Part shown: positions 24,583-38,438 of the stretch, piece after piece
How positions within the stretch are numbered: position 1 is the first letter of the stretch
How the letters are laid out: each line of letters starts with the position of its first letter
Sequence record: PZ445511.1
Strand: one strand, 5' to 3'
DNA: 64,000 nucleotides
From: a phage
Position numbers and translations under genes: made by a program
Notes under the pieces: model-generated
What the model saw: the letters and a program-made list of their open reading frames with translations, nothing else
Database searches by the model: none
What the model was told of the DNA's origin: nothing

Positions 24583-24654
24583 GCACCTATCGTCTAATGG
24601 TTAGGACATCAGGATTTCAATCTGAGAATTGAACTCCGATTCTCCGTGGGTGTG
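24583..24654 (+). tRNA. tRNA-like, probable tRNA-Glu(UUC) with degenerate T-arm
   Basis: acceptor gcaccta/tgggtgt with G-U pairs, good D and anticodon stems, loop atttcaa, CCA encoded. Confidence 0.4.
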
Positions 24655-24666: not shown

Positions 24667-24734
24667 TGGGGTACACATAGGTTGCTAGTGGGCCTCCAAA
24701 ACCCATGAAAAGGTTTCGAATACCTTTACCCCTG
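24667..24734 (+). tRNA. tRNA-Trp(CCA)-like with shortened D-arm
   Basis: 68 nt; anticodon loop ctccaaa, T-loop ttcgaat, 1-72 U-U mismatch; CCA encoded. Confidence 0.4.
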
Positions 24735-24743
24735 CCAATATTT

Positions 24744-25157: not shown

Positions 25158-25346
25158 ATGAAAGCACCTAAACCGAAATTAGTTAAGTTCGACTGCTGTG
25201 ATACTGAAATCTTATTTACTAAGTTTGGTGAATTTAAGATGTGTGAATGTGGAACATGTGGTTACGATCATGGTGATGGATATTATTGCAGAACCCTAGG
25301 GCCTTCTGAACTAATCCACTTCTCATGGCCGGAAAGTAAAGAATAA
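25158..25346 (+). CDS. Cys-rich small protein (putative zinc ribbon)
   Basis: 62 aa; CC..C.C..C..C pattern. Confidence 0.5.
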   Translation: MKAPKPKLVKFDCCDTEILFTKFGEFKMCECGTCGYDHGDGYYCRTLGPSELIHFSWPESKE

Positions 25347-25348
25347 TA

Positions 25349-25421
25349 CGACCGTTGGCTGAATGGCTTAGGCGGAGGCCTGCAAAACCTCCTTATGTGA
25401 GTTCGAATCTCATGCGGTCGT
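25349..25421 (+). tRNA. tRNA-Cys(GCA)
   Basis: acceptor cgaccgt/gcggtcg, anticodon loop ctgcaaa, T-loop ttcgaat, CCA encoded. Confidence 0.6.
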
Positions 25422-25426
25422 CCAAT

Positions 25427-25567
25427 TTGCTGAAAGAATTGTTAAATCAATTCAGGCACGCGTAGGAACACTGCCTCAGTAATTGAAAGATGAGGCACGG
25501 TTTGGAGAGGTATGCCGCTACACGCTACGGTGCTAACTCCGTCTAGGTGAAAATCCTAGTCAGCAAT
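25427..25567 (+). ncRNA. 141-nt tRNA-like RNA (acceptor-like stem plus T-arm-like hairpin around a long insert)
   Basis: ttgctga...tcagcaa terminal pairing; ctagg-tgaaaat-cctag hairpin; internal hairpins; not a canonical tRNA. Confidence 0.3.
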
Positions 25568-25576
25568 ATAAATTTA

Positions 25577-25656
25577 GGGTCGTTAGCCAAGCGGTTTGGC
25601 GGTGGACTGTTAATCCATGTCGAAAGACAACGTAGGTTCGAATCCTACACGGCCCG
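25577..25656 (+). tRNA. tRNA with GUU (Asn) anticodon on a type-II-like body
   Basis: acceptor gggtcgt/acggccc, 3-bp D stem, anticodon stem gtgga/tccat, loop ctgttaa, 13-nt variable arm, discriminator G, CCA. Confidence 0.5.
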
Positions 25657-25762
25657 CCATATTCTATGTAGGATTAAGTAAACCGGTAGCCAACCAGCTA
25701 TCATTACTGATATCGAATTCAGTCACAGATACCATTTTTCACTAACAACTGAGGAAATAGAT

Positions 25763-25948
25763 ATGACAACTCGTGCAATTGCTCGACTAGAAGCTGATCG
25801 TGATAATCTGATTAATAATATTAAGGTTCGTGGTAATATTATTAAGGCTCTGAAAGCTGAACTTCTTGAAGAACTTCAAGGTCAAGTAGAGCGTCGTGAA
25901 GCTCTAAAAGAGGTTGAGGAAGCTATCGAAAAACTCAAGGCTGAATAA
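25763..25948 (+). CDS. hypothetical coiled-coil protein
   Basis: 61 aa with GAGGAAA RBS. Confidence 0.45.
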   Translation: MTTRAIARLEADRDNLINNIKVRGNIIKALKAELLEELQGQVERREALKEVEEAIEKLKAE

Positions 25949-25951
25949 ATT

Positions 25952-26533
25952 ATGCACGGAATATCCTTACCCATTCCAGGGTTTGAGGAGTACTTAGTAA
26001 GTTTGGATGGGTTAGTATTTAGTATCAAATCAAACAAAATACTAACCCCAATAACCAGTAATTATGGATACTTATCTATACGTCTCCATAAAAATGGTCA
26101 ACAGAGAAATACCGGTGTACATAGGATTTTAGCATGTGCATTTAAGAAATTACCAAGTCTAGACTCTGAACTAGAAGTTGACCATATTAACACAGACATT
26201 ACTTATTGGGGTCTTAATAACTTACAAGTGCTCACAAAAGAGCAGCATCTAGAAAAGACTTTAAAAGATAAAGGATTTAGTAAACTAAATCATGATAATT
26301 GTTGTAAGGATTGTGGTAAAGCTATTTCTTTAAAAGCTGAAAAATGTCAGGAGTGCTCTTCACATAAACCAAAAGATATCTCTATAACTAAAGAAATAAT
26401 CGAGGTTACAGTAAGAGAGCTAGGCTGGTCAGGTGCAGGGAGAAAGTTAAATTATTCAGATAATGGGTTGCGTAAAAGATACACTTCTTTAGGAGGCAAT
26501 CCTAAAGAACTTAAAAAGTTAAAGGTACTATAG
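25952..26533 (+). CDS. HNH homing endonuclease with C-terminal Cys4 zinc ribbon
   Basis: 193 aa; EVDHIN..N motif; CKDCG...CQEC; 3' end overlaps tRNA-Asp by 10 nt. Confidence 0.7.
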   Translation: MHGISLPIPGFEEYLVSLDGLVFSIKSNKILTPITSNYGYLSIRLHKNGQQRNTGVHRILACAFKKLPSLDSELEVDHINTDITYWGLNNLQVLTKEQHLEKTLKDKGFSKLNHDNCCKDCGKAISLKAEKCQECSSHKPKDISITKEIIEVTVRELGWSGAGRKLNYSDNGLRKRYTSLGGNPKELKKLKVL

Positions 26534-26595
26534 TCTAACGGTTAGGATACTCCCCTGTCACGGGAGAGGTAGGGTTTCGATTACCCTTAGTACCG
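26524..26595 (+). tRNA. tRNA-Asp(GUC)
   Basis: acceptor ggtacta/tagtacc, anticodon stem ctccc/gggag, loop ctgtcac, T-loop ttcgatt, CCA. Confidence 0.75.
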
Positions 26596-26604
26596 CCAAA
26601 TTAT

Positions 26605-26678
26605 ACATCCATAGCTCAACTGGTCAGAGCTACCGCCTCTTAAGCGGAGGGTTGAAGGTTCAAGTCCTTCTGGGAGTA
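26605..26678 (+). tRNA. tRNA-Lys(CUU)
   Basis: D-stem gctc/gagc, anticodon loop ctcttaa, T-arm gaagg-ttcaagt-ccttc, CCA; one acceptor mismatch. Confidence 0.5.
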
Positions 26679-26686
26679 CCAAACAA

Positions 26687-26880
26687 ATAGAGTAAAGGCT
26701 ACAGTAGGTGCACCCTTACGGACTGCTACACCGGACTCTATTCATTAACAAACATTCTAGCGTGGTGGAGAGGGGACACCAGCTGTGCGAGGGTAGAAGC
26801 TTGTTCGATTCAAGTGAAAGAATGGTTCTCGTAAATCCGCAGCAGTGATAGTAGGTTCAAGTCCTACCTAGATTGACTTA
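26687..26880 (+). ncRNA. unresolved tRNA-like RNAs (two T-arm-like hairpins, one 66-nt acceptor-paired element)
   Basis: atagagt...actctat pairing; T-arm-like gcttg-ttcgatt-caagt and gtagg-ttcaagt-cctac without matching acceptors. Confidence 0.3.
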
Positions 26881-26884
26881 TTAT

Positions 26885-26955
26885 GCGTTCGTAGTTAAAA
26901 GGTATAATTTTTGGTTGCCAACCAGAAGTTGAGGGTTCGATTCCCTCCGACCGCA
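26885..26955 (+). tRNA. tRNA-Gly(GCC)
   Basis: anticodon stem tttgg/ccaga, loop ttgccaa, T-arm gaggg-ttcgatt-ccctc, CCA. Confidence 0.6.
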
Positions 26956-26959
26956 CCAA

Positions 26960-27180
26960 ATTTAGGGTTCTGCTTCCTAGAGAACGGACTCCTAGATAAA
27001 CAAGGCGATGAGTTTCCGGCCGGTTCTAGTCGCTGAAAATCCTCCCGACCAGGTAGGTGTAGGTAAACGAAAGTTTACTTATTGAGTAGGTTCCGATAGA
27101 TCGGCGGATCTATTCTGGCATTTAAGAGAAGTCTCGCAAACTTCTTTGTCAGCAGAGCGTTTGAAGCGTGAGGTGGCCTA
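26960..27180 (+). ncRNA. non-coding tRNA-cluster spacer with hairpins, candidate small RNA
   Basis: 220 nt, no ORF or canonical tRNA; gtcgctgaaaatcctcccgacc element resembles the T-arm-like hairpin of the 25427 element. Confidence 0.25.
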
Positions 27181-27209
27181 CACAATAAGTAAATTTATTA
27201 AAAACTCAT

Positions 27210-27238
27210 TTGCTATTTCACTTAATTCTCTTTATAAT
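27210..27238 (+). promoter_or_regulatory. early promoter (TTGCTA-17-TATAAT) for a tRNA block
   Basis: promoter family member directly upstream of tRNA-Pro. Confidence 0.7.
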
Positions 27239-27270
27239 ATATCTTATAAAGTGAGTTAACAAAGAATATT

Positions 27271-27345
27271 CTCCGTGTAGCTCAGTTTGGCCAGAGCGTT
27301 CCGTTTGGGGCGGTAGGGTCGGGGGTTCAAATCCTCCCACGGAGA
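27271..27345 (+). tRNA. tRNA-Pro(UGG)
   Basis: acceptor ctccgtg/cacggag perfect, anticodon loop tttgggg, T-loop ttcaaat, CCA. Confidence 0.65.
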
Positions 27346-27354
27346 CCAAACAAT

Positions 27355-27429
27355 TGCGGGTTAGATCTCTGGTAGAGATCGCTAGTCTCATAAGCTAGAA
27401 AGAGGTAGGTTCGATTCCTACACCCGCTT
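27355..27429 (+). tRNA. tRNA-Met/Ile(CAU), 1-72 unpaired
   Basis: anticodon stem ctagt/gctag, loop ctcataa, T-arm gtagg-ttcgatt-cctac, CCA; position 1-72 U-U. Confidence 0.5.
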
Positions 27430-27451
27430 CCAATTTAATAGAGGATACGAA

Positions 27452-27616
27452 ATGAAATTATTTCGATTGGTAGTAAGTGATAGACGGTCTAGCAAAGATC
27501 GTTCGAAGTATACCTTAGCCCATTATGGGAAAGATGAAAATGAAGTAATGGCTGAATTTGGTATTAATCATCGCTACTTAGAAGTTTACTCTATTAAGGA
27601 AGTTTATCCGTATTAA
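27452..27616 (+). CDS. hypothetical small protein (54 aa)
   Basis: GAGGA RBS 6 nt before ATG; stop abuts tRNA-Lys. Confidence 0.4.
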   Translation: MKLFRLVVSDRRSSKDRSKYTLAHYGKDENEVMAEFGINHRYLEVYSIKEVYPY

Positions 27617-27691
27617 GGGTCGTTAGCTCAATTGGTTAGTAGCACTTGCCTTTTAAGCAATAGGTTGAAGGTTCGAGTCCTTCACGACCCA
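27617..27691 (+). tRNA. tRNA-Lys(UUU)
   Basis: acceptor gggtcgt/acgaccc perfect, anticodon loop cttttaa, T-arm gaagg-ttcgagt-ccttc, CCA. Confidence 0.7.
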
Positions 27692-27703
27692 CCAAATTAC
27701 TTT

Positions 27704-27774
27704 GCTCGGTTAGTTTAATGGGAGAACCCCGTCTTTACACGGCGGTTGCGATAGTTCGATTCTATCACCGAGTA
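27704..27774 (+). tRNA. tRNA-Val(UAC)
   Basis: anticodon stem ccgtc/ggcgg, loop tttacac, T-arm gatag-ttcgatt-ctatc, CCA. Confidence 0.7.
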
Positions 27775-27802
27775 CCAATTAACTCAAAATAAGGAATTGC
27801 AA

Positions 27803-28156
27803 ATGCAATTATCAAGCAAGATTCAAGGCTATTTTGGTCATGTAACAATGGAGTTCGCTATCTCTAAAGGTTGGGATTTCGAGCAAGATCTAGCTGAGTT
27901 CTACAAAGATATTGATCTGAACGTACCATACATGGGACTCTCCACTGGTCAAGAGATCACAGAAGGCGATGTGTTCAAGGCAAGTCAAGGTGAGGTAACA
28001 CCTAATTTTGCCAAGTTCTGGTTAGGACTTACTTTGAAGGAAGATGCACCAGAGGATGGTGTGGTTATGCAGAGTATGCACTCTGGAAGCTCTGATTACC
28101 TTTTCGTTAGCGACGTTAAGGAACTACAAGAAATCGCTAAAAATGTACTTGCTTGA
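27803..28156 (+). CDS. hypothetical protein
   Basis: ORF 27797..28156; ATG 27803 with AAGGA RBS; stop overlaps next promoter -35. Confidence 0.55.
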   Translation: MQLSSKIQGYFGHVTMEFAISKGWDFEQDLAEFYKDIDLNVPYMGLSTGQEITEGDVFKASQGEVTPNFAKFWLGLTLKEDAPEDGVVMQSMHSGSSDYLFVSDVKELQEIAKNVLA

Positions 28157-28177
28157 TGCTTAATTTCTTGTTATAAT
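28149..28177 (+). promoter_or_regulatory. early promoter (TTGCTT-17-TATAAT) for a tRNA block
   Basis: promoter family member. Confidence 0.7.
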
Positions 28178-28179
28178 AT

Positions 28180-28439
28180 TTATATAAATTGATGAGGAGA
28201 AATCCTCATCAAAGTTCACTAAGGTATTAGCTCGACCTAGGGCTGGCTGCCAAAAAGCACAATTGCAATTAGACCCCTAATGGCGGGGGATACTTTGCAA
28301 TAAGTTCTAGATTAGTCCACTAGATTCAGTGGCAACTGAATAGTGTATCGGGTTTGTGAAGAGCGGTTATCCTCTACTGGCTAATGTCTGAGGGTAATAC
28401 GCACACCGAGCTAATAGCCTTAGTAAACTTAAAGATTTT
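28180..28439 (+). ncRNA. 260-nt structured leader or small RNA ahead of the tRNA-Ala pair
   Basis: hairpins gatgagga-gaaa-tcctcatc (28191-28210) and ccact-agattc-agtgg; no ORF. Confidence 0.3.
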
Positions 28440-28515
28440 GGGGAATGGGTCTGCTTGGAGTGGACACCTCGCTTGCACCGAGGATATCAGAAGAGTTCGA
28501 ATCTCTTATTCTCCA
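28440..28515 (+). tRNA. tRNA-Ala(UGC)-like
   Basis: G3-U70 pair, anticodon stem cctcg/cgagg, loop cttgcac, T-arm aagag-ttcgaat-ctctt, CCA; atypical D and variable lengths. Confidence 0.5.
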
Positions 28516-28523
28516 CCAAATTC

Positions 28524-28596
28524 GGGGTCATAGGTTATTTGGTTAAACTTACTGCCTTGCAAGCAGTGGAACTCAGTTCAATTCTGAGTGACTCCA
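28524..28596 (+). tRNA. tRNA-Ala(UGC)
   Basis: G3-U70 pair, anticodon stem actgc/gcagt, loop cttgcaa, T-arm ctcag-ttcaatt-ctgag, CCA. Confidence 0.65.
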
Positions 28597-28618
28597 CCAA
28601 ACAAATTAAGGAAATAAT

Positions 28619-28837
28619 ATGGTATTCTTAGCAGCCTCTGTAGTTCTTGCAGCTTTAGCACTAGCTATCTATTTTAGAACTATTAAAGATTTAGCTAAAG
28701 AAAAGAAAACTTTCTTTACTGATTATTCTTGGGGCGCTCCATATAACGTCCGCTTTATCAGCTTAGAAGCTATGCTGATAATGGTATTCAGTGGCATAGG
28801 TTCCATTGTTGCAGGGTTACTATTTATTTCTAACTAA
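28619..28837 (+). CDS. small membrane protein
   Basis: 72 aa with two hydrophobic helices. Confidence 0.5.
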   Translation: MVFLAASVVLAALALAIYFRTIKDLAKEKKTFFTDYSWGAPYNVRFISLEAMLIMVFSGIGSIVAGLLFISN

Positions 28838-29099: not shown

Positions 29100-29189
29100 G
29101 GAAGAGCAAATCGATTAGGTGACGAAAACCGCTTGGAAAGTGGCTGACTTGTTAAAGCAGGCTTGAGAGTTCGAATCTCTCTTCTTCCG
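29100..29189 (+). tRNA. tRNA-Ser(GGA)
   Basis: 90 nt, acceptor ggaagag/ttcttcc, anticodon loop ttggaaa, long variable arm, discriminator G, CCA. Confidence 0.55.
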
Positions 29190-29213
29190 CCAAACAACTA
29201 ATAGGGAATATAA

Positions 29214-29456
29214 ATGAAAGTCAAGATTATGATGTTGGATTTAGCTAATGATAAGTTTTTCTTGCGTCATACATTCCCTAGTAAGCAAGCTTTAGAGTTT
29301 CATATCAAGTACGCAATGGGCATGAAACTTCCTGAGCGAGAAATATTTGATAAAGCATGTGATACTGGAGTTATTTATGTATGGCAAACAACCTATCATG
29401 ATAATCCAGAAGATCTTCGAAAAGAAGTAGAACAAATACTAGAAGATAGTACGTAG
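29214..29456 (+). CDS. hypothetical protein
   Basis: 80 aa; 3' end overlaps tRNA-Ser(UGA) by 16 nt. Confidence 0.5.
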   Translation: MKVKIMMLDLANDKFFLRHTFPSKQALEFHIKYAMGMKLPEREIFDKACDTGVIYVWQTTYHDNPEDLRKEVEQILEDST

Positions 29457-29527
29457 TGGTATGTAACCGGTCTTGAAAACCGGCCCGCTGTAGTGATACG
29501 GTGATGGTTCGACTCCATTATCTTCTG
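29441..29527 (+). tRNA. tRNA-Ser(UGA)
   Basis: acceptor agaagat/atcttct perfect, anticodon stem ccggt/accgg, loop cttgaaa, long variable arm, discriminator G, CCA. Confidence 0.7.
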
Positions 29528-29530
29528 CCA

Positions 29531-29667
29531 AATCTTGAAGTATGCCGGAATCGGTAGACGGGGCTTCCTAAAGGGCGTAAGGGGAACATCCACTCCTCAT
29601 AAGATACCCGAAAACGAGGCTGAGATAACTGGTCTATCTCGTGAAGGTTCGAGTCCTTCTGCTTCTT
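29531..29667 (+). ncRNA. tRNA-like RNA with canonical T-arm but no clean cloverleaf
   Basis: T-arm gaagg-ttcgagt-ccttc at 29643-29659 preceded by hairpin gagata-actggtc-tatctc; best acceptor partner aggggaa at 29580 has a mismatch; no CCA. Confidence 0.3.
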
Positions 29668-29669
29668 GA

Positions 29670-29855
29670 TATTCATCAATGGCTCAAAGTGTAACGGTGC
29701 TATTTGATGCTCTTAGTAAGACTTTCCCGACATGCGTTCGGGAGTAAGCTGCTAAGGCTAGAGTAGAAGAGTTTCGGAGAGCCGCCACAATTGAAGTCTT
29801 TAGAATGGGTATCGCCCTTTAGCCCCTCCGAAAGGGATAACTAGAGATTTCAATT
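29670..29855 (+). ncRNA. structured non-coding segment bounded by 11-bp inverted repeat
   Basis: ccacaattgaa (29776-29786) and ttcaattgtgg (29849-29859) flank a GC hairpin ccctttagcccctccgaaaggg. Confidence 0.25.
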
Positions 29856-29929
29856 GTGGCTATATCATAATTGGTTAATGATCCTGATTGTGAATCAGGC
29901 CTATGTGGATTCGAATTCCACTAGCCACC
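29856..29929 (+). tRNA. tRNA-His(GUG)
   Basis: acceptor gtggcta/tagccac perfect, anticodon stem cctga/tcagg, loop ttgtgaa, T-arm gtgga-ttcgaat-tccac, CCA. Confidence 0.7.
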
Positions 29930-29938
29930 CCAAATATT

Positions 29939-30010
29939 GCGTCCTTATTTCAACGGAAAGAATGTAAAGCTACGAACTTTACGATCGGGGTTCGATTCCC
30001 TGAGGATGCA
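29939..30010 (+). tRNA. tRNA-Arg(ACG)
   Basis: anticodon stem taaag/cttta, loop ctacgaa, T-arm cgggg-ttcgatt-ccctg, CCA. Confidence 0.7.
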
Positions 30011-30037
30011 CCAATTAACTTAAACAGGAAATAAAAT

Positions 30038-30238
30038 ATGGCTGATTTCTGCAAAGAATGCTCTATTGATATGTGGGGCAGAGATACTGGTGATCTTTCT
30101 GGTCTGATTACAGAAGCCGAAGTTAAAGAAGGCTATGGTGCTGTTGTAATCTGTGAAGGTTGTGGCATTATCCGTGTTGATCATAATGGTAAACGTCTAG
30201 AAGAACCTGATCCAATCGCCACGGTTCCTGTAGAATAA
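30038..30238 (+). CDS. Cys-rich small protein (CxxC...CxxC)
   Basis: 66 aa; CKEC...CEGCG. Confidence 0.5.
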   Translation: MADFCKECSIDMWGRDTGDLSGLITEAEVKEGYGAVVICEGCGIIRVDHNGKRLEEPDPIATVPVE

Positions 30239-30245
30239 AAATTAT

Positions 30246-30318
30246 TGGGATGTAGATCAATTGGTAGATCGTCGGCCTCTGACTCCGAAGGTTCCACGTT
30301 CGATCCGTGGCATCCCAG
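30246..30318 (+). tRNA. tRNA-Gln(CUG)
   Basis: U1-A72, anticodon loop ctctgac, T-arm ccacg-ttcgatc-cgtgg, CCA. Confidence 0.65.
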
Positions 30319-30327
30319 CCAAACAAT

Positions 30328-30400
30328 TGGAGAGTAGTGTAACGGTTAGCACAACGGCCTTTGACTCCGTTAATGGTAGGTTCGATTCCTCCTTCTCCAG
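30328..30400 (+). tRNA. tRNA-Gln(UUG)
   Basis: paralog of previous; anticodon loop ctttgac; U1-A72; CCA. Confidence 0.65.
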
Positions 30401-30409
30401 CCAATTTAT

Positions 30410-30481
30410 GCGTGATTAGTTCAGTGGCTAGAATAACTGGCTTCCAACCAGTAGACACGAGTTCGACTCTCGTATCCCGCA
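30410..30481 (+). tRNA. tRNA-Gly(UCC)
   Basis: anticodon stem actgg/ccagt, loop cttccaa, T-arm acgag-ttcgact-ctcgt, CCA. Confidence 0.7.
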
Positions 30482-30500
30482 CCAAATATAAGGAAACGTT

Positions 30501-30722
30501 ATGGACGTTTTTGAGTTTCGTAATAAAAATCCTAATAGACGAGTTTTAATTATTGGTGAAACATACCGAGCTTATGAACAGGAAGACGGTTCGGTTTTAT
30601 TAAATGATGAAAAGCAAGGCTATAGCTTTCATCCAGAAGAAACATATGAAGAATTTCGTACTAAGTTTCTTTTACCAGACTGGCTAGCAATAGCTGAGCA
30701 AAGAGAACCCGAAGAGGGCTGA
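30501..30722 (+). CDS. hypothetical acidic protein
   Basis: 73 aa with AAGGAAA RBS. Confidence 0.5.
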   Translation: MDVFEFRNKNPNRRVLIIGETYRAYEQEDGSVLLNDEKQGYSFHPEETYEEFRTKFLLPDWLAIAEQREPEEG

Positions 30723-30750
30723 TAATCTAAAGCTAAAGGTTGATAAGCAA

Positions 30751-30879
30751 ATGAAGTGTGTTGAGGTTGAGTTGGGTGAAGAACGTTTAAAACTCTCATT
30801 CGAATTTCTACAGCAGTTGGCTATGACAGTAATGTCTGATAAGTCCCTTATATTTGAAAAAGAAATCCCGTTGAAATAA
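30751..30879 (+). CDS. possible small protein (42 aa)
   Basis: ATG with AAAGG upstream; below ORF-track length cutoff. Confidence 0.25.
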   Translation: MKCVEVELGEERLKLSFEFLQQLAMTVMSDKSLIFEKEIPLK

Positions 30880-30889
30880 TGGGTTTATT

Positions 30890-30961
30890 GCTCCTAAAGC
30901 ATTGCTGGCGATGCAGTTGCCTTGTAAGCATCTGAACCGGGTTCGATTCCAGGTGGGAGCA
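30890..30961 (+). tRNA. tRNA-Thr(UGU)
   Basis: acceptor gctccta/tgggagc, anticodon loop cttgtaa, T-loop ttcgatt, CCA; single mismatches in stems. Confidence 0.55.
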
Positions 30962-30980
30962 CCAAATTTAAAAAATTCAT

Positions 30981-31009
30981 TTGCCTTCTCTCTTATTTCT
31001 TGTTATAAT
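30981..31009 (+). promoter_or_regulatory. early promoter (TTGCCT-17-TATAAT)
   Basis: promoter family member. Confidence 0.65.
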
Positions 31010-31039
31010 ATTTATATAAATTAATTAGAGGGAAACCAA

Positions 31040-31333
31040 ATGAAACGTTATCTTTCTGTCGTGTTCCAAACTGGTGGTCAACGCTACACTTATGAATTTC
31101 CTGAGTCCTGGAAAATTAAAGAAGGTGATCAAGTTGTTGTATTAACACCTCGTGAAGGCTTCAAAGTAGTAACGGTTAAACAAGTATTTCCAAAAGATCA
31201 CGAACCATCTAAGTCTATTCAGTACAAGATGATTCACGGTCTGGTACGAAAAGTACCTAGAACAGAAGTCGAAGTAGATAAAACTGGGGGAGTTAAGTAT
31301 CAATATACATCCTACTTAGACGAGATGATGTAA
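31040..31333 (+). CDS. hypothetical protein
   Basis: 97 aa ORF. Confidence 0.55.
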   Translation: MKRYLSVVFQTGGQRYTYEFPESWKIKEGDQVVVLTPREGFKVVTVKQVFPKDHEPSKSIQYKMIHGLVRKVPRTEVEVDKTGGVKYQYTSYLDEMM

Positions 31334-31533
31334 TGAGAATTACTTTCACAGAAAAGATTATGTGTAATGGTGTTATGATCATTACAGCGTGGGACGGTAA
31401 ATTGTGGTGTAACGTATCTGGTCTAAAGCCAGAAGATCAAACACCTGAAAACATCCGCAAAGTAAAGCGAAAAATGGCGGAACGTGCCCAACTTCCAGGT
31501 GCTCCAAGAAATGGAGGCTATTTTTCAACCTAA
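31333..31533 (+). CDS. hypothetical protein
   Basis: 66 aa ORF, start overlaps upstream stop. Confidence 0.5.
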   Translation: MRITFTEKIMCNGVMIITAWDGKLWCNVSGLKPEDQTPENIRKVKRKMAERAQLPGAPRNGGYFST

Positions 31534-31534
31534 T

Positions 31535-31607
31535 GCTCCGATAGTTCAACAGGTTAGAACAGGCGACCGATAATCGTCAAATCTTGGTTCGATCCCAAGT
31601 CGGAGTA
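31535..31607 (+). tRNA. tRNA-Ile(GAU)
   Basis: D-stem gttc/gaac, anticodon stem ggcga/tcgtc, loop ccgataa, T-arm cttgg-ttcgatc-ccaag, CCA. Confidence 0.6.
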
Positions 31608-31616
31608 CCAAATTAT

Positions 31617-31689
31617 AGTTAGTTGGCAGAACGGTTATGCACCTCCTTCATACGGAGCGACTACAGTGGTTCAACTCCACTACTAACTA
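31617..31689 (+). tRNA. tRNA-Met/Ile(CAU)
   Basis: acceptor agttagt/actaact perfect, anticodon loop ttcatac, T-arm agtgg-ttcaact-ccact, CCA. Confidence 0.55.
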
Positions 31690-31875
31690 CCAAAGATAAG
31701 ATCAGGCCTTTGTGCCAGATCTCTGTGTTTATTAAACTGAATGGGACTATCAATCCACAAGCCGGACTACGAGCGATTATCGGGTATTCACTTAATAAAC
31801 AGCCTGCCTCCCAGTTTTTATCTTGCTTCTGGGTTAACAAAAAGCTGAGCCAAATTCTAACATCAGGGAGATCTA

Positions 31876-32244
31876 ATGAAAGCATATCAAAGTCTTAAGT
31901 CTGGCGTAATTAACATTGTTCATAACAATCAGATCATTCAACTATATTCTAAAGATGGTAAACTTAAACAGAAAGTTCTAGTCGAAGATCTAGAAGGTAT
32001 CACACCTCACTTTGACCCTGAGGCCTTTCGCATTGTAGATGTGGAAGTGGTTCCTCAAGTCGAGGGTGGTCAGCACCTAAATGTCAATGTGTTAAGCCGT
32101 GATCAGCTTTTGGATGCACAGAAACATCCTGAAAAATATCCTCAGTTGACCATCCGTGTCTCTGGCTATGCTGTTCGATTTAACGCATTGACGCGTGAAC
32201 AACAGAACGACGTTATTAGTCGTACATTTACTCAGGCGATATAA
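31876..32244 (+). CDS. grcA: autonomous glycyl-radical cofactor (GrcA/YfiD-like)
   Basis: 122 aa; C-terminal block GGQHLNVNV...[20 protein letters not shown] matches my recollection of E. coli GrcA including the RVSGY radical motif. Confidence 0.75.
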
Positions 32245-32325
32245 TGGGGTTTGGATACGATTTCTCCCAGCTACGCAAGGTAGTCGAGCAAACTCCATTT
32301 ATCTCCCAAGTTTTAGGAGAAATGT

Positions 32326-32625
32326 GTGGATCGAGCATTAAGACGCCATCACCGGCAACGTGTGAAAAACAATCGCAAAAAGTATTGGACAGTCTTCCCA
32401 CATGAAGAAAGTCCTAAGCGGTTAGGCATTATCACTACCACTCCTTGCATCTGTTCTTGTTGGATGTGTGGGAATCCTCGCAAATACTATAAGAATAGTA
32501 AAGCAGGTATGAAAATCTCGGAGATTAAAAAGATGGGTGCAATGATTATGGGCATCACCTTTACAGGCGGTATCTCTGATGAATTCGACGGTTTTGTAAC
32601 TCAGGATATTGTCGAAATTATCTAA
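32326..32625 (+). CDS. hypothetical basic, Cys-containing protein (GTG start)
   Basis: 99 aa; AGGAGA RBS 6 nt upstream of GTG; CICSCWMC cluster. Confidence 0.4.
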   Translation: MDRALRRHHRQRVKNNRKKYWTVFPHEESPKRLGIITTTPCICSCWMCGNPRKYYKNSKAGMKISEIKKMGAMIMGITFTGGISDEFDGFVTQDIVEII

Positions 32626-32689
32626 TTAATAATAAACCCCAGCTATTGAATAGGTAGTCTGGGGTTTTCTTGTATGTAGGATTTTCGAA

Positions 32690-32875
32690 ATGAAAATTTT
32701 TAAAGTGAACTATAGCGGCCTGTGGTTAGGTGGTAAAGCTATTGTCGTTGCAGAAACTGCAGAAGAAGCAATCGAACTGGCTAGAAACCATAGAAGTTCT
32801 ATAGAATTCGAGGATGTGACAGTAGAAGAACTCCCGAGCAGTGGGGTAGTATACAACGACAACGGAGATTACTGA
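32690..32875 (+). CDS. hypothetical protein
   Basis: 61 aa ORF. Confidence 0.45.
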   Translation: MKIFKVNYSGLWLGGKAIVVAETAEEAIELARNHRSSIEFEDVTVEELPSSGVVYNDNGDY

Positions 32876-32933
32876 TGTTATATTTTGAAGTTCGCCCACA
32901 TTAAGTTAATTTAAAAGACTTAATGGAGGTAAT

Positions 32934-33329
32934 ATGAGCCGTACATATCGTAAACAATCTGGTGATCGTCACTGGCGTGATGCACATCGTTCTACTTATA
33001 ATTTTCATAGCACTAATATCCGTATTCCGTATATCTACACGGATAGGGATGGTAAGCAGTGGAAGTATTATCAAGTTCGATCCAATGAAGCATGGGCTAA
33101 AACTTGGGATGAAATTGAGAAGGAGATTCAGGAAAATATCATCCGTAACGAGAAGAAAGATGGGCACTGGTGGGATTCTGTTAGTAGGAATGTTAAGTGG
33201 CATTCTAACAAAATGGTTCGTCATGGAAACCGTCGTGAACTTCACCGTGTGATGAAAGATCCAGAAAATTACGACTATAATCGTGATCATGACCTGCGTA
33301 AGCGTGGGTTATGGTGGGTTTACGACTAA
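32934..33329 (+). CDS. hypothetical basic protein
   Basis: 131 aa with GGAGG RBS. Confidence 0.55.
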   Translation: MSRTYRKQSGDRHWRDAHRSTYNFHSTNIRIPYIYTDRDGKQWKYYQVRSNEAWAKTWDEIEKEIQENIIRNEKKDGHWWDSVSRNVKWHSNKMVRHGNRRELHRVMKDPENYDYNRDHDLRKRGLWWVYD

Positions 33330-33346
33330 TTTCATAAATAATTCAT

Positions 33347-33375
33347 TTGCTAAAACCCTCTCCTTTTGATATAAT
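33347..33375 (+). promoter_or_regulatory. early promoter (TTGCTA-17-TATAAT)
   Basis: promoter family member. Confidence 0.7.
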
Positions 33376-33405
33376 ATTTATATAAATTGATGAGAGGGCT
33401 TTGAA

Positions 33406-33678
33406 ATGAAAGAAGCAGAAATTAATGAAATGGCTAGAATATTCATCGTTTCCTATATGCAAGGCAGTTGCAATAGTTTATTCGAGTCTGCTATAGTATT
33501 TCAGGAAATGTTAGCCGAGAAAGGCGTACATATGGAAGATACTGAAATTGAAGATCTTCTAATGGAAACTTGTAGTAGTGCTGAAGTCTTCCAGTGTGGT
33601 AACTGTAATTGGTGGTGTCCAGAGCATGATCGTTCTGAAGAAGGTTCCTACTGTTCCGATTGTGAAGGAGAAGAATAA
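33406..33678 (+). CDS. hypothetical protein with C-terminal Cys cluster
   Basis: 90 aa; CGNCNWWC...CSDC. Confidence 0.5.
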   Translation: MKEAEINEMARIFIVSYMQGSCNSLFESAIVFQEMLAEKGVHMEDTEIEDLLMETCSSAEVFQCGNCNWWCPEHDRSEEGSYCSDCEGEE

Positions 33679-33977
33679 TGAATAAGTTTATTATTGCTCT
33701 AGTAATTTCAGCAGTTAGTTTCGGTTCTCTGGCATCTACCAAAGTTTCTATGAAAAATGGTAATGTTAAAGTTCAGCAGAATGGCATTACCACCGAATAT
33801 GGTAAAGTACGTGATGTAAAAGAACGTAATGGCAAAGTAGAAATATATACTAATAAAAACTTCTCTACTCCGGCTGTTACTGTTAGTAAACGTGGTGAAA
33901 TCACTACTCAACGTACTAATAGTTCTGATTCTTTTACTTGCCGTTATGACTGCGGCTTTGAAGGTGAAGATGAGTAA
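33678..33977 (+). CDS. secreted small protein
   Basis: 99 aa with signal peptide. Confidence 0.5.
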   Translation: MNKFIIALVISAVSFGSLASTKVSMKNGNVKVQQNGITTEYGKVRDVKERNGKVEIYTNKNFSTPAVTVSKRGEITTQRTNSSDSFTCRYDCGFEGEDE

Positions 33978-34389
33978 TTTAGACCCTAGAATTAAACATG
34001 CAGTTGAAGAAATCCAAGATCAAATCGATGAGGATTTCACTGTTTGGTCAAGATTTGGTAATGGTGAAGGTTGTCAGCTTTATAACATGAAAATGGGTAT
34101 CTCGATTGAACTTAGTATCAATCCCGAGGGTAACGTAGAAGCCCAACCCATGTTCAGTGTTCCAGGCTTCTCTGGATTTGTTATGGGCATGAAACTATGT
34201 CTACCAAATAAACATCTTTACCGTGTTATCTGTCAGCTAGAAACAATTAAACATTTCTTGCCAGAAGATAACATTAATGACTACTATCATGAAGTTGTAG
34301 CAGCTTACATGATGAAAGAACGCAAACGTCGGAGAGCAGAACGTGAAAGAGCTAAATCTCAACAGTCTAGTACAGATTCCAGCAACTGA
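33970..34389 (+). CDS. hypothetical protein
   Basis: ATG 33970 in frame within ORF 33892..34389, overlapping upstream stop by 8 nt. Confidence 0.45.
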   Translation: MSNLDPRIKHAVEEIQDQIDEDFTVWSRFGNGEGCQLYNMKMGISIELSINPEGNVEAQPMFSVPGFSGFVMGMKLCLPNKHLYRVICQLETIKHFLPEDNINDYYHEVVAAYMMKERKRRRAERERAKSQQSSTDSSN

Positions 34390-34639
34390 TGCTGTACTAG
34401 ACTTCCCCAAGCAGGAACATATTAAGTTCTGGACTAACTATGCAGAACAGTACGAAGAAACTTCTAGTGCAATAACATTCGCGGATAAACGAATAGCTGA
34501 GTATACAGATCCTAGAGTTAAAAATGGTATGATTACCTTACCACTTTGGGATGTAATGGAAAAGTTTGGTAAAGATTTGTGCCCAGGTTGTATACCATTG
34601 TTTGTTACTATTCTAATTGACGAAAAGGATCTTAAATGA
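34343..34639 (+). CDS. hypothetical protein
   Basis: 98 aa; 47-nt overlap with upstream gene makes the start uncertain. Confidence 0.4.
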   Translation: MKELNLNSLVQIPATDAVLDFPKQEHIKFWTNYAEQYEETSSAITFADKRIAEYTDPRVKNGMITLPLWDVMEKFGKDLCPGCIPLFVTILIDEKDLK

Positions 34640-34920
34640 TTATCTCTCCATTTGCTTTGTGGTTTGTTATTGGTGCAGTTGTCGCGATTTACAGTCTGAT
34701 TGATGATCTGTATATCTCTAAAAATAAAGATGTTATTCTTTATGTTATAAACAAATATCGTCCGCCAGAATTAACAGAATTTGACGATGAAAAGATGTTC
34801 AAATTCATTATGTCAGGTATGCTTATTATGGACACCTTGTTCGGGCCAGTAGCTACTTATTTCTTCTTACGTAAAACTCGTAAGATGAAAAAGTTCCGTG
34901 CTGAAATGCAGAGCAAGTAA
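34636..34920 (+). CDS. small membrane protein
   Basis: 94 aa, two hydrophobic segments. Confidence 0.5.
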   Translation: MIISPFALWFVIGAVVAIYSLIDDLYISKNKDVILYVINKYRPPELTEFDDEKMFKFIMSGMLIMDTLFGPVATYFFLRKTRKMKKFRAEMQSK

Positions 34921-35036
34921 AGAACTCGCGTAGGACCGAGTTGCGTCACCTGCAACTGTTACGGATAAGGGAGTCGTGCCCCTTAGTGCGGTAAGTGGTG
35001 AGTTGGTCGCTGACCTCAACTTTAACTGGAGATATC

Positions 35037-35384
35037 ATGAGCTTTATTTTATTCATTGTAGCAGCATGGTTTATTATTGGTTTAGGCTATGCTATTGCAG
35101 TTATTCGTCATCTGGATGAATATTCTGCTGAATGGTTTATTAAGTACCTACGTTTAGACGATCAAGAACACGAGTTCGACAGTGCTGAGGAAAGACAGGC
35201 TGTCCAGTCAATGACTCCCAAAGAATGCTTGCTTTACATGCGTGTAATTGGTTTCTTTGGACTGTTGGTAGCGGGGCCGTTAGGTCTTACTATTGCTCCC
35301 TACAAAGAAGTTGTTGACGACATTAAACTATGGAGAACCGCTGGATCGCTACGTCGTGCTAGAGAATTAAGTAAACAAGAGTGA
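35037..35384 (+). CDS. small membrane protein
   Basis: ATG 35037 with GGAG RBS inside ORF 34995..35384. Confidence 0.5.
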   Translation: MSFILFIVAAWFIIGLGYAIAVIRHLDEYSAEWFIKYLRLDDQEHEFDSAEERQAVQSMTPKECLLYMRVIGFFGLLVAGPLGLTIAPYKEVVDDIKLWRTAGSLRRARELSKQE

Positions 35385-35419
35385 TGATAATCACCTCCTA
35401 GCAAGAATAATAATGACAA

Positions 35420-35455
35420 AGCCCAGCCTGCAATTTTGCGACTGGGCTATTTTTG
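35420..35455 (+). terminator. rho-independent terminator
   Basis: agcccag...ctgggct stem followed by TTTTT. Confidence 0.6.
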
Positions 35456-35469
35456 TAATAAAATTTCAG

Positions 35470-35498
35470 TTGCTCAGATGCCACAAGTATTGTATAAT
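35470..35498 (+). promoter_or_regulatory. early promoter (TTGCTC-17-TATAAT)
   Basis: promoter family member. Confidence 0.65.
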
Positions 35499-35529
35499 AT
35501 GTTTATAGATTGAGGCAAAAGGATAATTT

Positions 35530-36228
35530 ATGAGAATCATTTCAAAGTTCAATGATGTATACGATTTGCAGAATAGTTTATTTGATCCAGATCGTGTCTG
35601 GGAGCGTAAAACTGAAGAGCTGCTAGTAAAAGTAACTGACGATGTAGAAAAGAATATCGTTCATAATCGTCAGGTGTTTCGTGAGGGTTCCTTATCCTTC
35701 CGTGGTGACTTCGAATACTCAGTAAATCCACTGTTTATTGCAGGTGAAGTTTACTGGTTACATGAACTGTCCTGCTGGCATCCAGCATTCAGTTTCAAAA
35801 CGTTCAACATCGATGCTGTGTTCGATAAAATGGAAGAAATGGGATTACATGCCCGTTCTTACTTACTAGATAAGAATCGTGGTGATGTTCGTGAAACCAT
35901 GCGAGATATGTTGGTTGAAGCAAAACCTAAAGCAGAACGTATCTTATCTGAACTGCGCGTACCAATTGCATATGTGAAAGGTATTAAGAAGAACGATAAC
36001 GATGATGTTCGTAACTTCGTAATTCAGACAAACATTCGTTTCCATCAGTCAGGTATTCCGTGGCAGGAAATTGAAAGTAACTTATACCGTTTACACCAAG
36101 TTCTCGAACAGTATATTTTCGGTGTACTAGGAACTGGTGAGCCTGATATGATTACCGTATCAGATAAAGACAGGTTAGCAGCACATGGATTTGATACAAA
36201 AACTTCTTTCAGGAATATGGCAAGGTAA
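35530..36228 (+). CDS. hypothetical protein
   Basis: 232 aa ORF. Confidence 0.6.
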   Translation: MRIISKFNDVYDLQNSLFDPDRVWERKTEELLVKVTDDVEKNIVHNRQVFREGSLSFRGDFEYSVNPLFIAGEVYWLHELSCWHPAFSFKTFNIDAVFDKMEEMGLHARSYLLDKNRGDVRETMRDMLVEAKPKAERILSELRVPIAYVKGIKKNDNDDVRNFVIQTNIRFHQSGIPWQEIESNLYRLHQVLEQYIFGVLGTGEPDMITVSDKDRLAAHGFDTKTSFRNMAR

Positions 36229-36634
36229 GTGGTATATCCTGGGAGCTGGTCTTGCGATAGGTATCGGATTCGGTGCTTATCACTTAGTAAATAAGGTTGA
36301 AACTCTAGCTGGGGATCTTGCAGTTGCGGCTAAAAAGATCTCCACTCTAGAGACTTCCCTTAATAAGGTGAAAACTGAAAGTGAACTTCGGGAGACTCGA
36401 ATGAACCAGTATTTCACAATGAATAATATTTCGCAAGCAGATCTAGACAAAAAGATTAAGCAGTTAGATAAAGCTCTTAATCGTCAAGATGTTATCGCTG
36501 CAAAGCCTGGATTGGTAACATTAATTGCTAAAAAGCAGAATAAAGAGTTCGAGGAAAGATTAGCGTGTTTAACTGGAAACTTGGAGTACTGCTCGCAGCC
36601 GCAATCACAATCACAGGCTGTGCAGAAGAAATAA
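36185..36634 (+). CDS. membrane-anchored coiled-coil protein (i-spanin-like)
   Basis: N-terminal TM WYILGAGLAIGIGFGAY followed by coiled coil; overlaps next gene by 70 nt. Confidence 0.4.
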   Translation: MDLIQKLLSGIWQGKWYILGAGLAIGIGFGAYHLVNKVETLAGDLAVAAKKISTLETSLNKVKTESELRETRMNQYFTMNNISQADLDKKIKQLDKALNRQDVIAAKPGLVTLIAKKQNKEFEERLACLTGNLEYCSQPQSQSQAVQKK

Positions 36635-36918
36635 AACCAGAGCCATCCCATGAGTTAAAGCAAGCTCATATCGATTGGCCTAAAGGACTTCAGCCTTGTA
36701 GTTTTGATTTCAAATTCGAAAAGAAATTAGCTACAAATGGTGAAGATGGCGTAGTAGTTGTTGTACCTTACAAAGATTGGAATGCAAAAGCAAAATGCGA
36801 GGAAGCAGTTTACTCTTACATTTCACGACTGACCGGTATGGTTTGCTTCTATCGTCAGGATTTACAAGAAAAACGTTGCTTAGTTTATTATCCACCCATT
36901 ACAAATAGGAAAGATTAA
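36565..36918 (+). CDS. lipoprotein (o-spanin-like)
   Basis: signal peptide with lipobox ITGC; gene embedded in 3' end of preceding ORF. Confidence 0.45.
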   Translation: MFNWKLGVLLAAAITITGCAEEIKPEPSHELKQAHIDWPKGLQPCSFDFKFEKKLATNGEDGVVVVVPYKDWNAKAKCEEAVYSYISRLTGMVCFYRQDLQEKRCLVYYPPITNRKD

Positions 36919-37670: not shown

Positions 37671-37682
37671 TTAAGGATCACT

Positions 37683-38282: not shown

Positions 38283-38291
38283 GTAGTTTTA

Positions 38292-38320
38292 AGCCAGAGT
38301 TTAACGACTCTGGCTTTTCT
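38292..38320 (+). terminator. rho-independent terminator
   Basis: agccagagt-ttaacg-actctggct followed by TTTT. Confidence 0.65.
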
Positions 38321-38414: not shown

Positions 38415-38438
38415 GGTAGTGGTTAGAGGAGGTTACAA

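What the first reader, a model, noticed from the sequence alone, without database searches (positions are those of the whole stretch)
26687..28439. Unassigned non-coding segments inside the tRNA cluster
After placing tRNAs and small ORFs, three stretches remain without assignment: 26687-26880, 26960-27180 and 28180-28439. Each carries hairpins or T-arm-like fragments, and two of them share the motif TGAAAATCCT within a hairpin with the 141-nt element at 25427. They may be small stable RNAs or decayed tRNAs.
Basis: seen in the sequence. Interest (0 to 1): 0.35.

Follow-up and report, generated by a model that had tools for sequence, protein, structure and literature searches.

The report
Small stable RNA genes among phage tRNAs

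Summary
The window is a T5-like Epseptimavirus, 99.9% identical to Salmonella phage S147. The three segments hold no ordinary tRNA and no conserved ORF.

Each contains an orthologue of a misc_RNA annotated in the T5 RefSeq record as a "stable RNA with unknown functions":
- RNA2 (tRNA-like): 26753-26877
- RNAIV: 27084-27184
- RNA2H: 28225-28419

Compensatory base changes across several Demerecviridae lineages support folded RNAs. The RNA2 orthologue is a cloverleaf with a canonical T arm and a long branched "anticodon" arm. RNA2H has a roughly 22-bp closing helix, four hairpins and two loop-to-strand pseudoknots, kept in five lineages. Rfam has no family for any of them.

Three further modules are absent from T5:
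- a 55-nt hairpin (26687-26741), also found in Kuttervirus tRNA clusters
- a conserved 87-nt core (26996-27083)
- the 141-nt element at 25427, a second tRNA-shaped RNA, also found in a Mydovirus

The "shared TGAAAATCCT" link is weak: two exact copies, and a covariance model of the 25427 element hits nothing else.

Function is unknown. T5 mutants deleted for the region are viable, so I expect an accessory role, possibly counter-defence.

The parts
25427..25567 (+). The "141-nt element" (E0), outside the finding but cited by it. It is a tRNA-shaped RNA with these parts: a 7-bp terminal stem (UUGCUGA 25427-33 / UCAGCAA 25560-66); a 6-bp hairpin; a long branched arm; and a T-arm-like hairpin CUAGG-UGAAAAU-CCUAG (25543-25559). 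It is absent from T5.
   Evidence: Fold z = -3.8. 13 of 39 pairs show compensatory changes. It is present in T5-like phages and, at 80% identity, in the tRNA cluster of Mydovirus BIS47. Model R2 hits nothing else in the window.
26687..26741 (+). E1a: a 55-nt hairpin module just after tRNA-Lys(CUU). Terminal stem AUAGAGU/ACUCUAU. The core GGCUACAGUAGGUGCACCCnUnCGGAmUGCUACACCG is nearly invariant. Absent from T5.
   Evidence: Matches Kuttervirus (Ackermannviridae) tRNA clusters at 85%. The terminal stem covaries at 3 pairs. Model R3 finds one copy per cluster. Fold energy alone is not significant, z = -0.5. No copies in 185,579 species genomes.
26753..26877 (+). Orthologue of T5 RNA2 (tRNA-like stable RNA). 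It has an 8-bp acceptor-like stem; a D-like arm; a long branched "anticodon" arm with an internal T-loop hairpin; a T arm at 26851-26867; and 3' tail AC.
   Evidence: 84% identical to T5 rna2 over 125 nt. 14 of 27 pairs have compensatory changes, including Serratia phage Slocum. Not called as a tRNA by ARAGORN or Rfam.
26959..27083 (+). E2a: a variable hairpin after tRNA-Gly(GCC) (26960-26997), then a conserved 87-nt core (26996-27083). The core contains TGAAAATCCT (27034-27043) and a GNRA hairpin GUAAAC-GAAA-GUUUAC (27063-27078). Absent from T5; present in Bf23 and Epseptimaviruses.
   Evidence: The core is nearly invariant. There is one compensatory change, C-G to U-A, in the small hairpin CCUCC(C/U)GACCA(G/A)GUAGG, read by eye. 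The start codon of its 25-aa ORF is lost in Bf23. Status as a separate RNA is unproven.
27084..27184 (+). Orthologue of T5 RNAIV (stable RNA). The terminal stem GUAGG.../...CCUAC closes three hairpins.
   Evidence: 89% identical to T5 rnaIV. Fold z = -2.1. 36 predicted pairs but only 3 covary, because diversity is low.
27210..27238 (+). Sigma-70 promoter TTGCTA-17-TATAAT at the position of T5 promoter P13a. It starts the next unit (tRNA-Pro, tRNA-fMet).
28149..28177 (+). Promoter TTGCTT-17-TATAAT at the position of T5 promoter P13b. It drives the RNA2H-tRNA-Ala unit. Predicted start is near 28184.
   Evidence: Read from the sequence. T5 annotation has P13b directly upstream of rna2H.
28189..28212 (+). 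A 10-bp hairpin at the 5' end of the transcript (UUGAUGAGGA-GAAA-UCCUCAUCAA). Its loop region carries AGAAAUCCU.
   Evidence: z = -6.2. Conserved in T5, Bf23 and others; absent in the Klebsiella lineage.
28213..28429 (+). Orthologue of T5 RNA2H; the ends annotated in T5 correspond to 28225-28419. Helices:
- P1 closing helix: 28213-28234 / 28407-28429
- strand a: GGGCUG 28240-45
- strand c: UGCC(A) 28248-52
- Px: GCAC 28257-60 / GUGU 28343-46
- variable hairpin: 28262-28301
- P4: 28306-10 / 28320-24, with loop UAGUCC (28313-18) pairing strand a
- P5: 28325-29 / 28336-40, with loop UGGCA (28330-34) pairing strand c
- hairpin P6: 28364-28401
   Evidence: z = -6.75. Over 64 pairs, 95.4% of cells are paired and 35 pairs changed on both sides; 0 of 500 shuffles reach this, and slid controls give 29-44%. 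Pseudoknot a is 100% paired, with 3 of 6 pairs compensatory. Five lineages keep the architecture. There is no Rfam family and no E. coli genome match.

Best explanation
**What it is.** The segments carry genes for small non-coding RNAs that form part of the phage's early tRNA transcription units. Three are orthologues of T5's RNA2 (tRNA-like), RNAIV and RNA2H. The rest are extra modules of the same general kind.

**How they are made (inferred).**
- Host RNA polymerase reads them from sigma-70 early promoters in the same precursors as the tRNAs, and host tRNA-maturation nucleases cut them out.
- The tRNA-shaped ones (the RNA2 orthologue and the 25427 element) end in a 7-8-bp stem stacked on a 5-bp arm with a 7-nt loop. 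That is the minimal shape RNase P and 3' trimming enzymes recognise.
- RNA2H is released through its roughly 22-bp closing helix. The ends annotated in T5 lie inside that helix with about a 2-nt 3' overhang in helical register, as RNase III would leave. RNase P cleavage of tRNA-Ala, about 10 nt downstream, would free the other side.
- Compact folds, pseudoknotted in RNA2H, would then let them accumulate.

**What they do (guess).** Most likely they act in trans as accessory factors. My best single guess is decoys or sponges for host proteins that bind or cut tRNA and other RNA.

**What is shown and what is not.** Identity with the T5 genes and the selected folds are shown here. Processing is inferred. 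Function is a guess, about 0.25.
For: **Identity**
- The window is a T5-like phage.
- T5 RefSeq annotates rna2, rnaIV and rna2H as stable RNAs in the same gene order. They align at 84%, 89% and 77%.

**Selected structure**
- RNA2H: 35 of 64 pairs changed on both sides, 95.4% of cells paired, 0 of 500 shuffles. Both pseudoknots are rebuilt with different sequences in T5/Epseptimavirus, Klebsiella, Serratia and contig L092 lineages.
- RNA2 orthologue: 14 of 27 covarying pairs.
- The 25427 element: 13 of 39 covarying pairs.

**Not coding:**

**Co-transcription**
- All genes are on one strand, with promoters at 27210-27238 and 28149-28177 matching T5 P13a and P13b.
- RNA2H lies between the promoter and tRNA-Ala in three lineages.

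**Accessory role**
- Viable T5 mutants T5Mos (deletion 30661-38625) and T5-123 (deletion 29191-32442) remove the T5 genes at 31808-33083 (PMC11464382; coordinates).
- There is no host copy in 5,426 E. coli genomes.

**Same design elsewhere**
- T4 annotates the stable RNAs rnaC and rnaD in its tRNA cluster. rnaC ends in a canonical T arm next to its 3' terminal strand.
Against: - No expression data for this phage were available. Accumulation as discrete RNAs rests on the T5 annotation.
- Fold energies of 26687-26741, 26753-26877 and 26959-27083 are not better than shuffles.
- RNAIV and the 26996-27083 core have almost no informative variation.
- Covariation comes from a few lineages (4-5 for RNA2H, 3 for the 25427 element), so independent events are few.
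- Nothing here bears directly on function. In the PARIS study, T5 tRNA-Lys alone rescued infection, and fragments other than the tRNA-Pro/fMet/Lys/Val one had no effect. So these RNAs are not the anti-PARIS factor.
Confidence: 0.8

Rival explanations
1. They are cis-acting parts of the tRNA precursors only. On this view they act as structured spacers and leaders that give nuclease entry sites, protect 5' ends or insulate neighbouring tRNAs during folding. The excised pieces are by-products that happen to be stable.
For: - Every module sits directly next to a tRNA.
- RNA2H is a promoter-proximal leader of tRNA-Ala in three lineages.
- A 5' hairpin caps the transcript.
- The region is deletable in T5.
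Against: - Five helices plus two covarying pseudoknots, with invariant single-stranded runs (AAAA-CAC, AGUGUA), is far more than a cleavage site needs.
- In Serratia phage Slocum, RNA2H is followed by a ribosome-binding site and an ORF, not a tRNA.
- The same modules recur next to different tRNAs in unrelated phage families.
Confidence: 0.25
2. They are decayed tRNA genes or other neutral remnants with no function.
For: - The cluster does contain degenerate tRNA-like sequences: 24583-24654 has a mispaired T arm, and 29119-29195 gives only a weak tRNA-Sec hit.
- One phage, KKP_3822, carries a visibly damaged copy of the 25427 element.
Against: - Compensatory changes keep helices across genera.
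- Cores of 38-87 nt are almost invariant between phage families.
- T5 annotates them as stable RNAs.
Confidence: 0.04
3. They encode small proteins. Some GenBank records annotate "hypothetical protein" over them.
For: - Short ORFs exist (26708-26848, 46 aa; 27008-27085, 25 aa).
- Several records annotate CDSs there.
Against: - Frame-breaking indels occur between close relatives.
- A start codon is lost in Bf23.
- Annotated CDSs lie on either strand in different records.
- The substitution pattern follows base pairs, not codons.
- There is no + strand ORF of 25 aa or more within 28180-28383.
Confidence: 0.02
4. RNA2H is a catalytic RNA or a ligand-sensing leader (ribozyme or riboswitch), not a passive stable RNA.
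For: - It has a complex pseudoknotted fold with invariant unpaired nucleotides.
- It sits between a promoter and a tRNA.
- From my own knowledge, self-cleaving ribozymes next to phage tRNAs are known.
Against: - No match to any Rfam ribozyme or riboswitch, even at E<=10.
- No terminator or sequestered ribosome-binding site follows it.
- The helix order does not fit group I, HDV-like, twister or glmS topologies (my reading).
Confidence: 0.07

Closest known systems
Phage T5 stable RNAs RNA2, RNAIV and RNA2H (misc_RNA T5s06, T5s05, T5s04 in NC_005859)
   Same: - Sequence homology of 84%, 89% and 77%.
- Same order relative to tRNA-Asp, promoter P13a, tRNA-Pro/fMet, promoter P13b and tRNA-Ala.
- Same strand as the tRNAs.
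   Different: - This phage has tRNA-Lys(CUU) plus a 55-nt hairpin in front of RNA2.
- It has tRNA-Gly(GCC) plus a 125-nt segment inserted between RNA2 and RNAIV.
- Two RNA2H hairpins are replaced: one is 22 nt longer and one has a different sequence.
- T5 lacks the 25427 element.
Phage T4 species 1 and species 2 RNAs (rnaC, rnaD)
   Same: Small stable RNAs of unknown function inside a phage tRNA cluster, next to a homing-endonuclease gene. rnaC carries a canonical T arm next to its 3' terminal strand, like the RNA2 orthologue and the 25427 element.
   Different: No sequence or model similarity. T4 has two such RNAs; the T5 RefSeq record annotates eight.
tRNA (Rfam RF00005)
   Same: The RNA2 orthologue and the 25427 element have a terminal 7-8-bp stem, a 5-bp arm with a 7-nt loop stacked on it, a D-like arm and a four-way junction.
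   Different: - No anticodon loop; the "anticodon" arm is 60-80 nt and branched.
- The T loop of the 25427 element is UGAAAAU, not UUCRANY.
- No encoded CCA, whereas most tRNAs here encode it.
- Not detected by ARAGORN or the Rfam model.
tRNA mimics that carry another module (tmRNA tRNA-like domain; bacterial Y-RNA-like YrlA)
   Same: The general design is the same: a tRNA-like end joined to an unrelated structured module. This comparison rests on my own knowledge.
   Different: ARAGORN finds no tmRNA. The only YrlA hit is 17.9 bits against a gathering score of 69, and it lies over tRNA-Lys/Val, not over these segments.
Functional tRNA-precursor spacers (E. coli 3'ETS-leuZ sponge)
   Same: A piece cut from a tRNA precursor acts in trans as an RNA sponge. 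The reference to Lalaouna et al. 2015 was seen; the content is from my own knowledge. This is the precedent for the decoy idea.
   Different: That spacer is short, Hfq-bound and acts by base pairing. No target complementarity was tested here.

Membership tests
T5 stable RNA genes rna2 / rnaIV / rna2H | Sequence homology to the annotated T5 genes | tested here: met
   blastn: rna2 aligns to 26753-26877 (84%), rnaIV to 27086-27184 (89%), and rna2H to 28225 onward (77% over 113 nt). Model R1 scores 237 bits on the window and 267 bits on T5.
T5 stable RNA genes rna2 / rnaIV / rna2H | Same position and strand in the tRNA cluster | tested here: met
   In both phages the order is tRNA-Asp ... rna2 - rnaIV - promoter - tRNA-Pro - tRNA-fMet ... 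tRNA-Val - promoter - rna2H - tRNA-Ala.
T5 stable RNA genes rna2 / rnaIV / rna2H | Accumulates as a discrete stable RNA in infected cells | not testable with these tools
   This rests only on the T5 record's annotation. I found no paper in the library that describes the experiments.
T5 stable RNA genes rna2 / rnaIV / rna2H | Conserved secondary structure | tested here: met
   rna2H. rna2. For rnaIV the result is inconclusive, with 3 covarying pairs out of 36.
tRNA | Detected by tRNA covariance model or ARAGORN, with a cloverleaf and a 7-nt anticodon loop | tested here: not met
   No call in any of the three segments at gathering score or at E<=10.
tRNA | Acceptor stem stacked on a T arm with T-loop UUCRANY | tested here: met
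   Met for 26753-26877 only: T arm 26851-26867 with loop UUCAAGU. The 25427 element has the shape, but its loop is UGAAAAU.
T4 species 1/2 RNAs (rnaC, rnaD) | Sequence or structure homology | tested here: not met
   Model R2 and model R3 give no hits on the T4 locus. Model R1 was not run on it. Only the genomic setting and the tRNA-like 3' end of rnaC are alike.
tmRNA | tRNA-like domain plus tag reading frame | tested here: not met
   ARAGORN reports no tmRNA. The Rfam permuted-tmRNA hit is 13.7 bits over the two tRNA-Ala genes.
Known ribozymes and riboswitches (Rfam 15) | Match to a curated covariance model | tested here: not met
   Nothing at E<=10 inside the segments apart from chance snoRNA-type hits.

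The most novel reading that the evidence does not exclude
RNA2H may be an undescribed class of complex-fold RNA. It has a closing helix, four hairpins and two loop-to-strand pseudoknots, and it is conserved across Demerecviridae that infect Escherichia, Salmonella, Klebsiella and Serratia, plus a fifth lineage from viral contig L092. It may have a specific molecular activity: tight binding of a host protein or tRNA, or catalysis.

Together with the tRNA-shaped 25427 element (shared with a Mydovirus) and the 55-nt hairpin (shared with Kuttervirus), it could belong to a set of RNA modules that unrelated large lytic phages exchange inside their tRNA clusters and use against host defences that target tRNA or translation.
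Probability: 0.2. Interest if true: 0.7.

Novelty: new member of a known kind. Interest (0 to 1): 0.35.

Why it matters
T5's stable RNAs are annotated with unknown functions, and most T5-like genome records leave them blank or overlay spurious "hypothetical proteins".

Annotators can name these stretches once it is recognised that they are conserved, structured RNA genes with covariation-backed models.

The RNA2H fold (two pseudoknots) and the sharing of two modules with unrelated phage families give concrete objects for experiments. This is timely because phage tRNA clusters are now known to counter tRNA-cutting defences.

If the RNAs prove to be processing by-products, the result is simply better annotation.

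Tried and rejected
- **Rfam.** Searched at gathering score and at E<=10. It finds only tRNAs and chance hits.
- **Shared-motif link.** Pairwise blast among all non-tRNA spacers finds only the 10-mer, E = 0.32. A covariance model of the 25427 element finds no second copy in the window.
- **Host or bacterial origin.**
  - No match in 5,426 complete E. coli genomes.
  - The 17-nt core of the 55-nt hairpin gives only chance hits in 185,579 species genomes.
- **Homology to T4 rnaC/rnaD.** None found.
- **Group I intron.** UAGAUUAGUCC resembles the S element and pairs with GGACUG like P7. I rejected this because the helix order does not fit and the sequence is not conserved in the Klebsiella or Serratia versions.
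- **HDV-like or other small ribozyme for the 55-nt hairpin.** No Rfam support.
- **Coding potential.** Rejected.
- **Literature.** Four searches found no paper in the library that describes the T5 stable RNAs. Only the GenBank annotation and the T5 deletion-mutant data were usable.
- **Viral-contig pattern scans.** These mostly returned the same T5-like genomes plus chance hits.
Full report
**What the window is**

The stretch 25300-28700 is 99.9% identical to Salmonella phage S147, an Epseptimavirus in the family Demerecviridae (T5-like). More than 500 T5-like genomes match it. ARAGORN finds 28 tRNA genes, all on the + strand, between 17822 and 31692. Rfam finds only tRNAs. S147's own annotation leaves the three segments blank.

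**Checking the observation**

- No tRNA or other Rfam family lies in 26687-26880, 26960-27180 or 28180-28439, even at E<=10.
- Only 25-46-aa ORFs are present.
- The motif TGAAAATCCT occurs exactly twice in the window, at 25548 and 27034. Expectation is 0.31, and 5 of 100 shuffles reach two. So one segment shares it with the 25427 element, not two.
- The third segment has AGAAAUCCU in the loop region of a 5' hairpin.
- Blast among all spacers finds nothing beyond that 10-mer.
- A covariance model of the 25427 element hits only itself in the window.

The gaps and hairpins are real; the motif link is not.

**What the segments are**

The T5 RefSeq record NC_005859 annotates eight misc_RNA genes in its tRNA region. 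They are labelled "stable RNA with unknown functions" or "tRNA-like stable RNA". Blast places them in the window as follows:

| T5 gene | Window position | Identity |
|---|---|---|
| rna2 | 26753-26877 | 84% |
| rnaIV | 27086-27184 | 89% |
| rna2H | 28225 onward | 77% over 113 nt |
| rna3 | 25662-25734 | 92% |
| rna1 | 29534-29680 | 80% |
| rnaI | 29681-29787 | 92% |
| rnaX | 17781-18399 | 72-80% over two stretches |

Gene order and the promoters P13a and P13b are the same in both phages. Each segment of the finding therefore contains one T5-type stable-RNA gene.

The remaining material is:
- a 55-nt hairpin (26687-26741)
- a 125-nt piece after tRNA-Gly (26959-27083)
- the promoter and 5' hairpin of the RNA2H unit (28149-28212)

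**RNA2 orthologue (26753-26877)**

Fifteen distinct homologues, including Serratia phage Slocum and Yersinia phage phiR2-01, fold into a cloverleaf. It has:
- an 8-bp terminal stem
- a D-like arm
- a long arm with an internal hairpin carrying a T-loop sequence (UUCGAUU)
- a canonical T arm

Fourteen of 27 pairs show compensatory changes. Its fold energy alone is unremarkable, z = -0.65.

**RNAIV orthologue (27084-27184)**

A terminal stem closes three hairpins. Diversity is low, and only 3 of 36 pairs covary. Fold z = -2.1.

**RNA2H orthologue (28213-28429)**

The single-sequence fold is very stable, z = -6.75.

A model built from 20 sequences recovers homologues in four further lineages:
- T5 and Bf23
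- Klebsiella T5-likes
- Serratia phage Slocum (74 bits)
- contig L092 (55 bits)

On a 14-row alignment fitted to that model, the 64 pairs I specified gave these results:
- 95.4% of cells are paired.
- 35 pairs have changes on both sides.
- 0 of 500 shuffles reach the observed values.
- Slid controls give 29-44% paired.

Besides a roughly 22-bp closing helix and four hairpins, two hairpin loops pair with one upstream strand:

| Lineage | Strand a / P4 loop | Strand c / P5 loop |
|---|---|---|
| T5 | GGACUG / UAGUCC | UGCC / GGCA |
| Klebsiella | GAGCCG / UGGCUC | ACCA / UGGU |
| Serratia | GAACCG / UGGUUC | UCCUAC / GUAGGA |
| L092 | GAGUCG / UGGCUC | UUGC / GCAA |

These are read. The second pairing was read by eye, because insertions shift its columns. 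Both interactions are pseudoknots.

The ends annotated in T5 fall inside the closing helix with about a 2-nt 3' overhang in helical register. That suggests RNase III cleavage; this step is inference.

**Modules absent from T5**

- **The 25427 element.** It is another tRNA-shaped RNA, with 13 of 39 covarying pairs. It also sits in the tRNA cluster of Klebsiella phage BIS47, a Mydovirus, just upstream of a tRNA-Ser.
- **The 55-nt hairpin.** It has a nearly invariant 38-nt core. It occurs once per cluster in some T5-likes, in Kuttervirus phages and in one metagenomic contig, always among tRNAs.
- **The 26996-27083 core.** It is nearly invariant in Epseptimaviruses and Bf23. One compensatory change supports a small hairpin. 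Whether it is a separate RNA is open.

**How it probably works**

- *Shown:* homology to annotated stable-RNA genes, selected folds, and placement within tRNA transcription units.
- *Inferred:* co-transcription with the tRNAs; excision by RNase P and 3' trimming for the tRNA-shaped RNAs; excision by RNase III plus RNase P of the downstream tRNA-Ala for RNA2H; accumulation because of compact structure.
- *Function unknown:*
  - T5 mutants lacking coordinates 30661-38625 or 29191-32442 are viable. The anti-PARIS activity of that region maps to tRNA-Lys (PMC11464382).
  - The T5 genes lie at 31808-33083. So these RNAs are dispensable in laboratory hosts and are not the PARIS suppressor.
  - There is no copy in E. 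coli genomes.
  - I favour an accessory trans-acting role as a decoy or sponge, at about 0.25. The main alternative is that they serve only as cis-acting processing or stability elements.

**Comparison with known systems**

- The nearest relatives are the T5 genes themselves.
- T4's rnaC and rnaD are the same kind of thing but are not homologous.
- The segments fail the tests for tRNA, tmRNA, YrlA and all Rfam ribozymes and riboswitches.

**Verdict**

What is added here:
- covariation-backed folds, notably the double-pseudoknot RNA2H
- the finding that two other modules are shared with unrelated phage families

Interest is modest.

Noticed in passing
window 24667-24737: A 94%-identical orthologue of T5 tRNA-Trp(CCA) that neither ARAGORN nor Rfam calls. 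It has an unusually short D arm. The cluster's tRNA count is therefore understated.
   Followed up: partly
window 24583-24654: A tRNA-like gene with anticodon UUC (Glu) found by Rfam at 35 bits but not by ARAGORN. Its T arm has two non-standard pairs. It does not align with T5 tRNA-Glu. It may be a decaying tRNA.
   Followed up: partly
window 29119-29195: A tRNA-like remnant with a good T arm (GAGAG-UUCGAAU-CUCUC) and a CCA end, but no callable cloverleaf. It gets only a 23.8-bit tRNA-Sec hit.
   Followed up: no
window 17781-18399: Homologue of T5's 719-nt "RNAX" stable RNA. ARAGORN's "tRNA-SeC(tca)" at 17822-17895 lies inside it, so that call is doubtful.
   Followed up: no
window 25662-25734 and 29534-29787: Orthologues of T5 rna3 (92%), rna1 (80%) and rnaI (92%). 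T5 rnaIII has no match, which leaves 29788-29855 unassigned.
   Followed up: no
window 25952-26533: An HNH homing-endonuclease ORF whose last 10 bases overlap the start of tRNA-Asp at 26524. T5-like clusters differ mainly by such endonuclease genes and by insertions of a tRNA plus an RNA module.
   Followed up: no
L083 (IMG/VR 2706796127) and L098:1837-1986 (phage KKP_3822): Two damaged copies of the 25427 element. In one, the 5' half is replaced by the start of an ORF. The other has several small deletions that break the T-like arm.
   Followed up: no
L077:2386-3400 (Kuttervirus STML-13-1) and L076:2237-3580 (Mydovirus BIS47): Both unrelated phages have long non-tRNA spacers between their tRNAs. 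The spacers contain further stem-closed modules and T-arm-like ends, for example L077 around 3300-3335. No record annotates them.
   Followed up: no
window 28189-28212, minus strand: The 5' leader hairpin of the RNA2H unit also scores as a terminator-like site on the minus strand, being followed by a T-rich run. No minus-strand gene is nearby.
   Followed up: no
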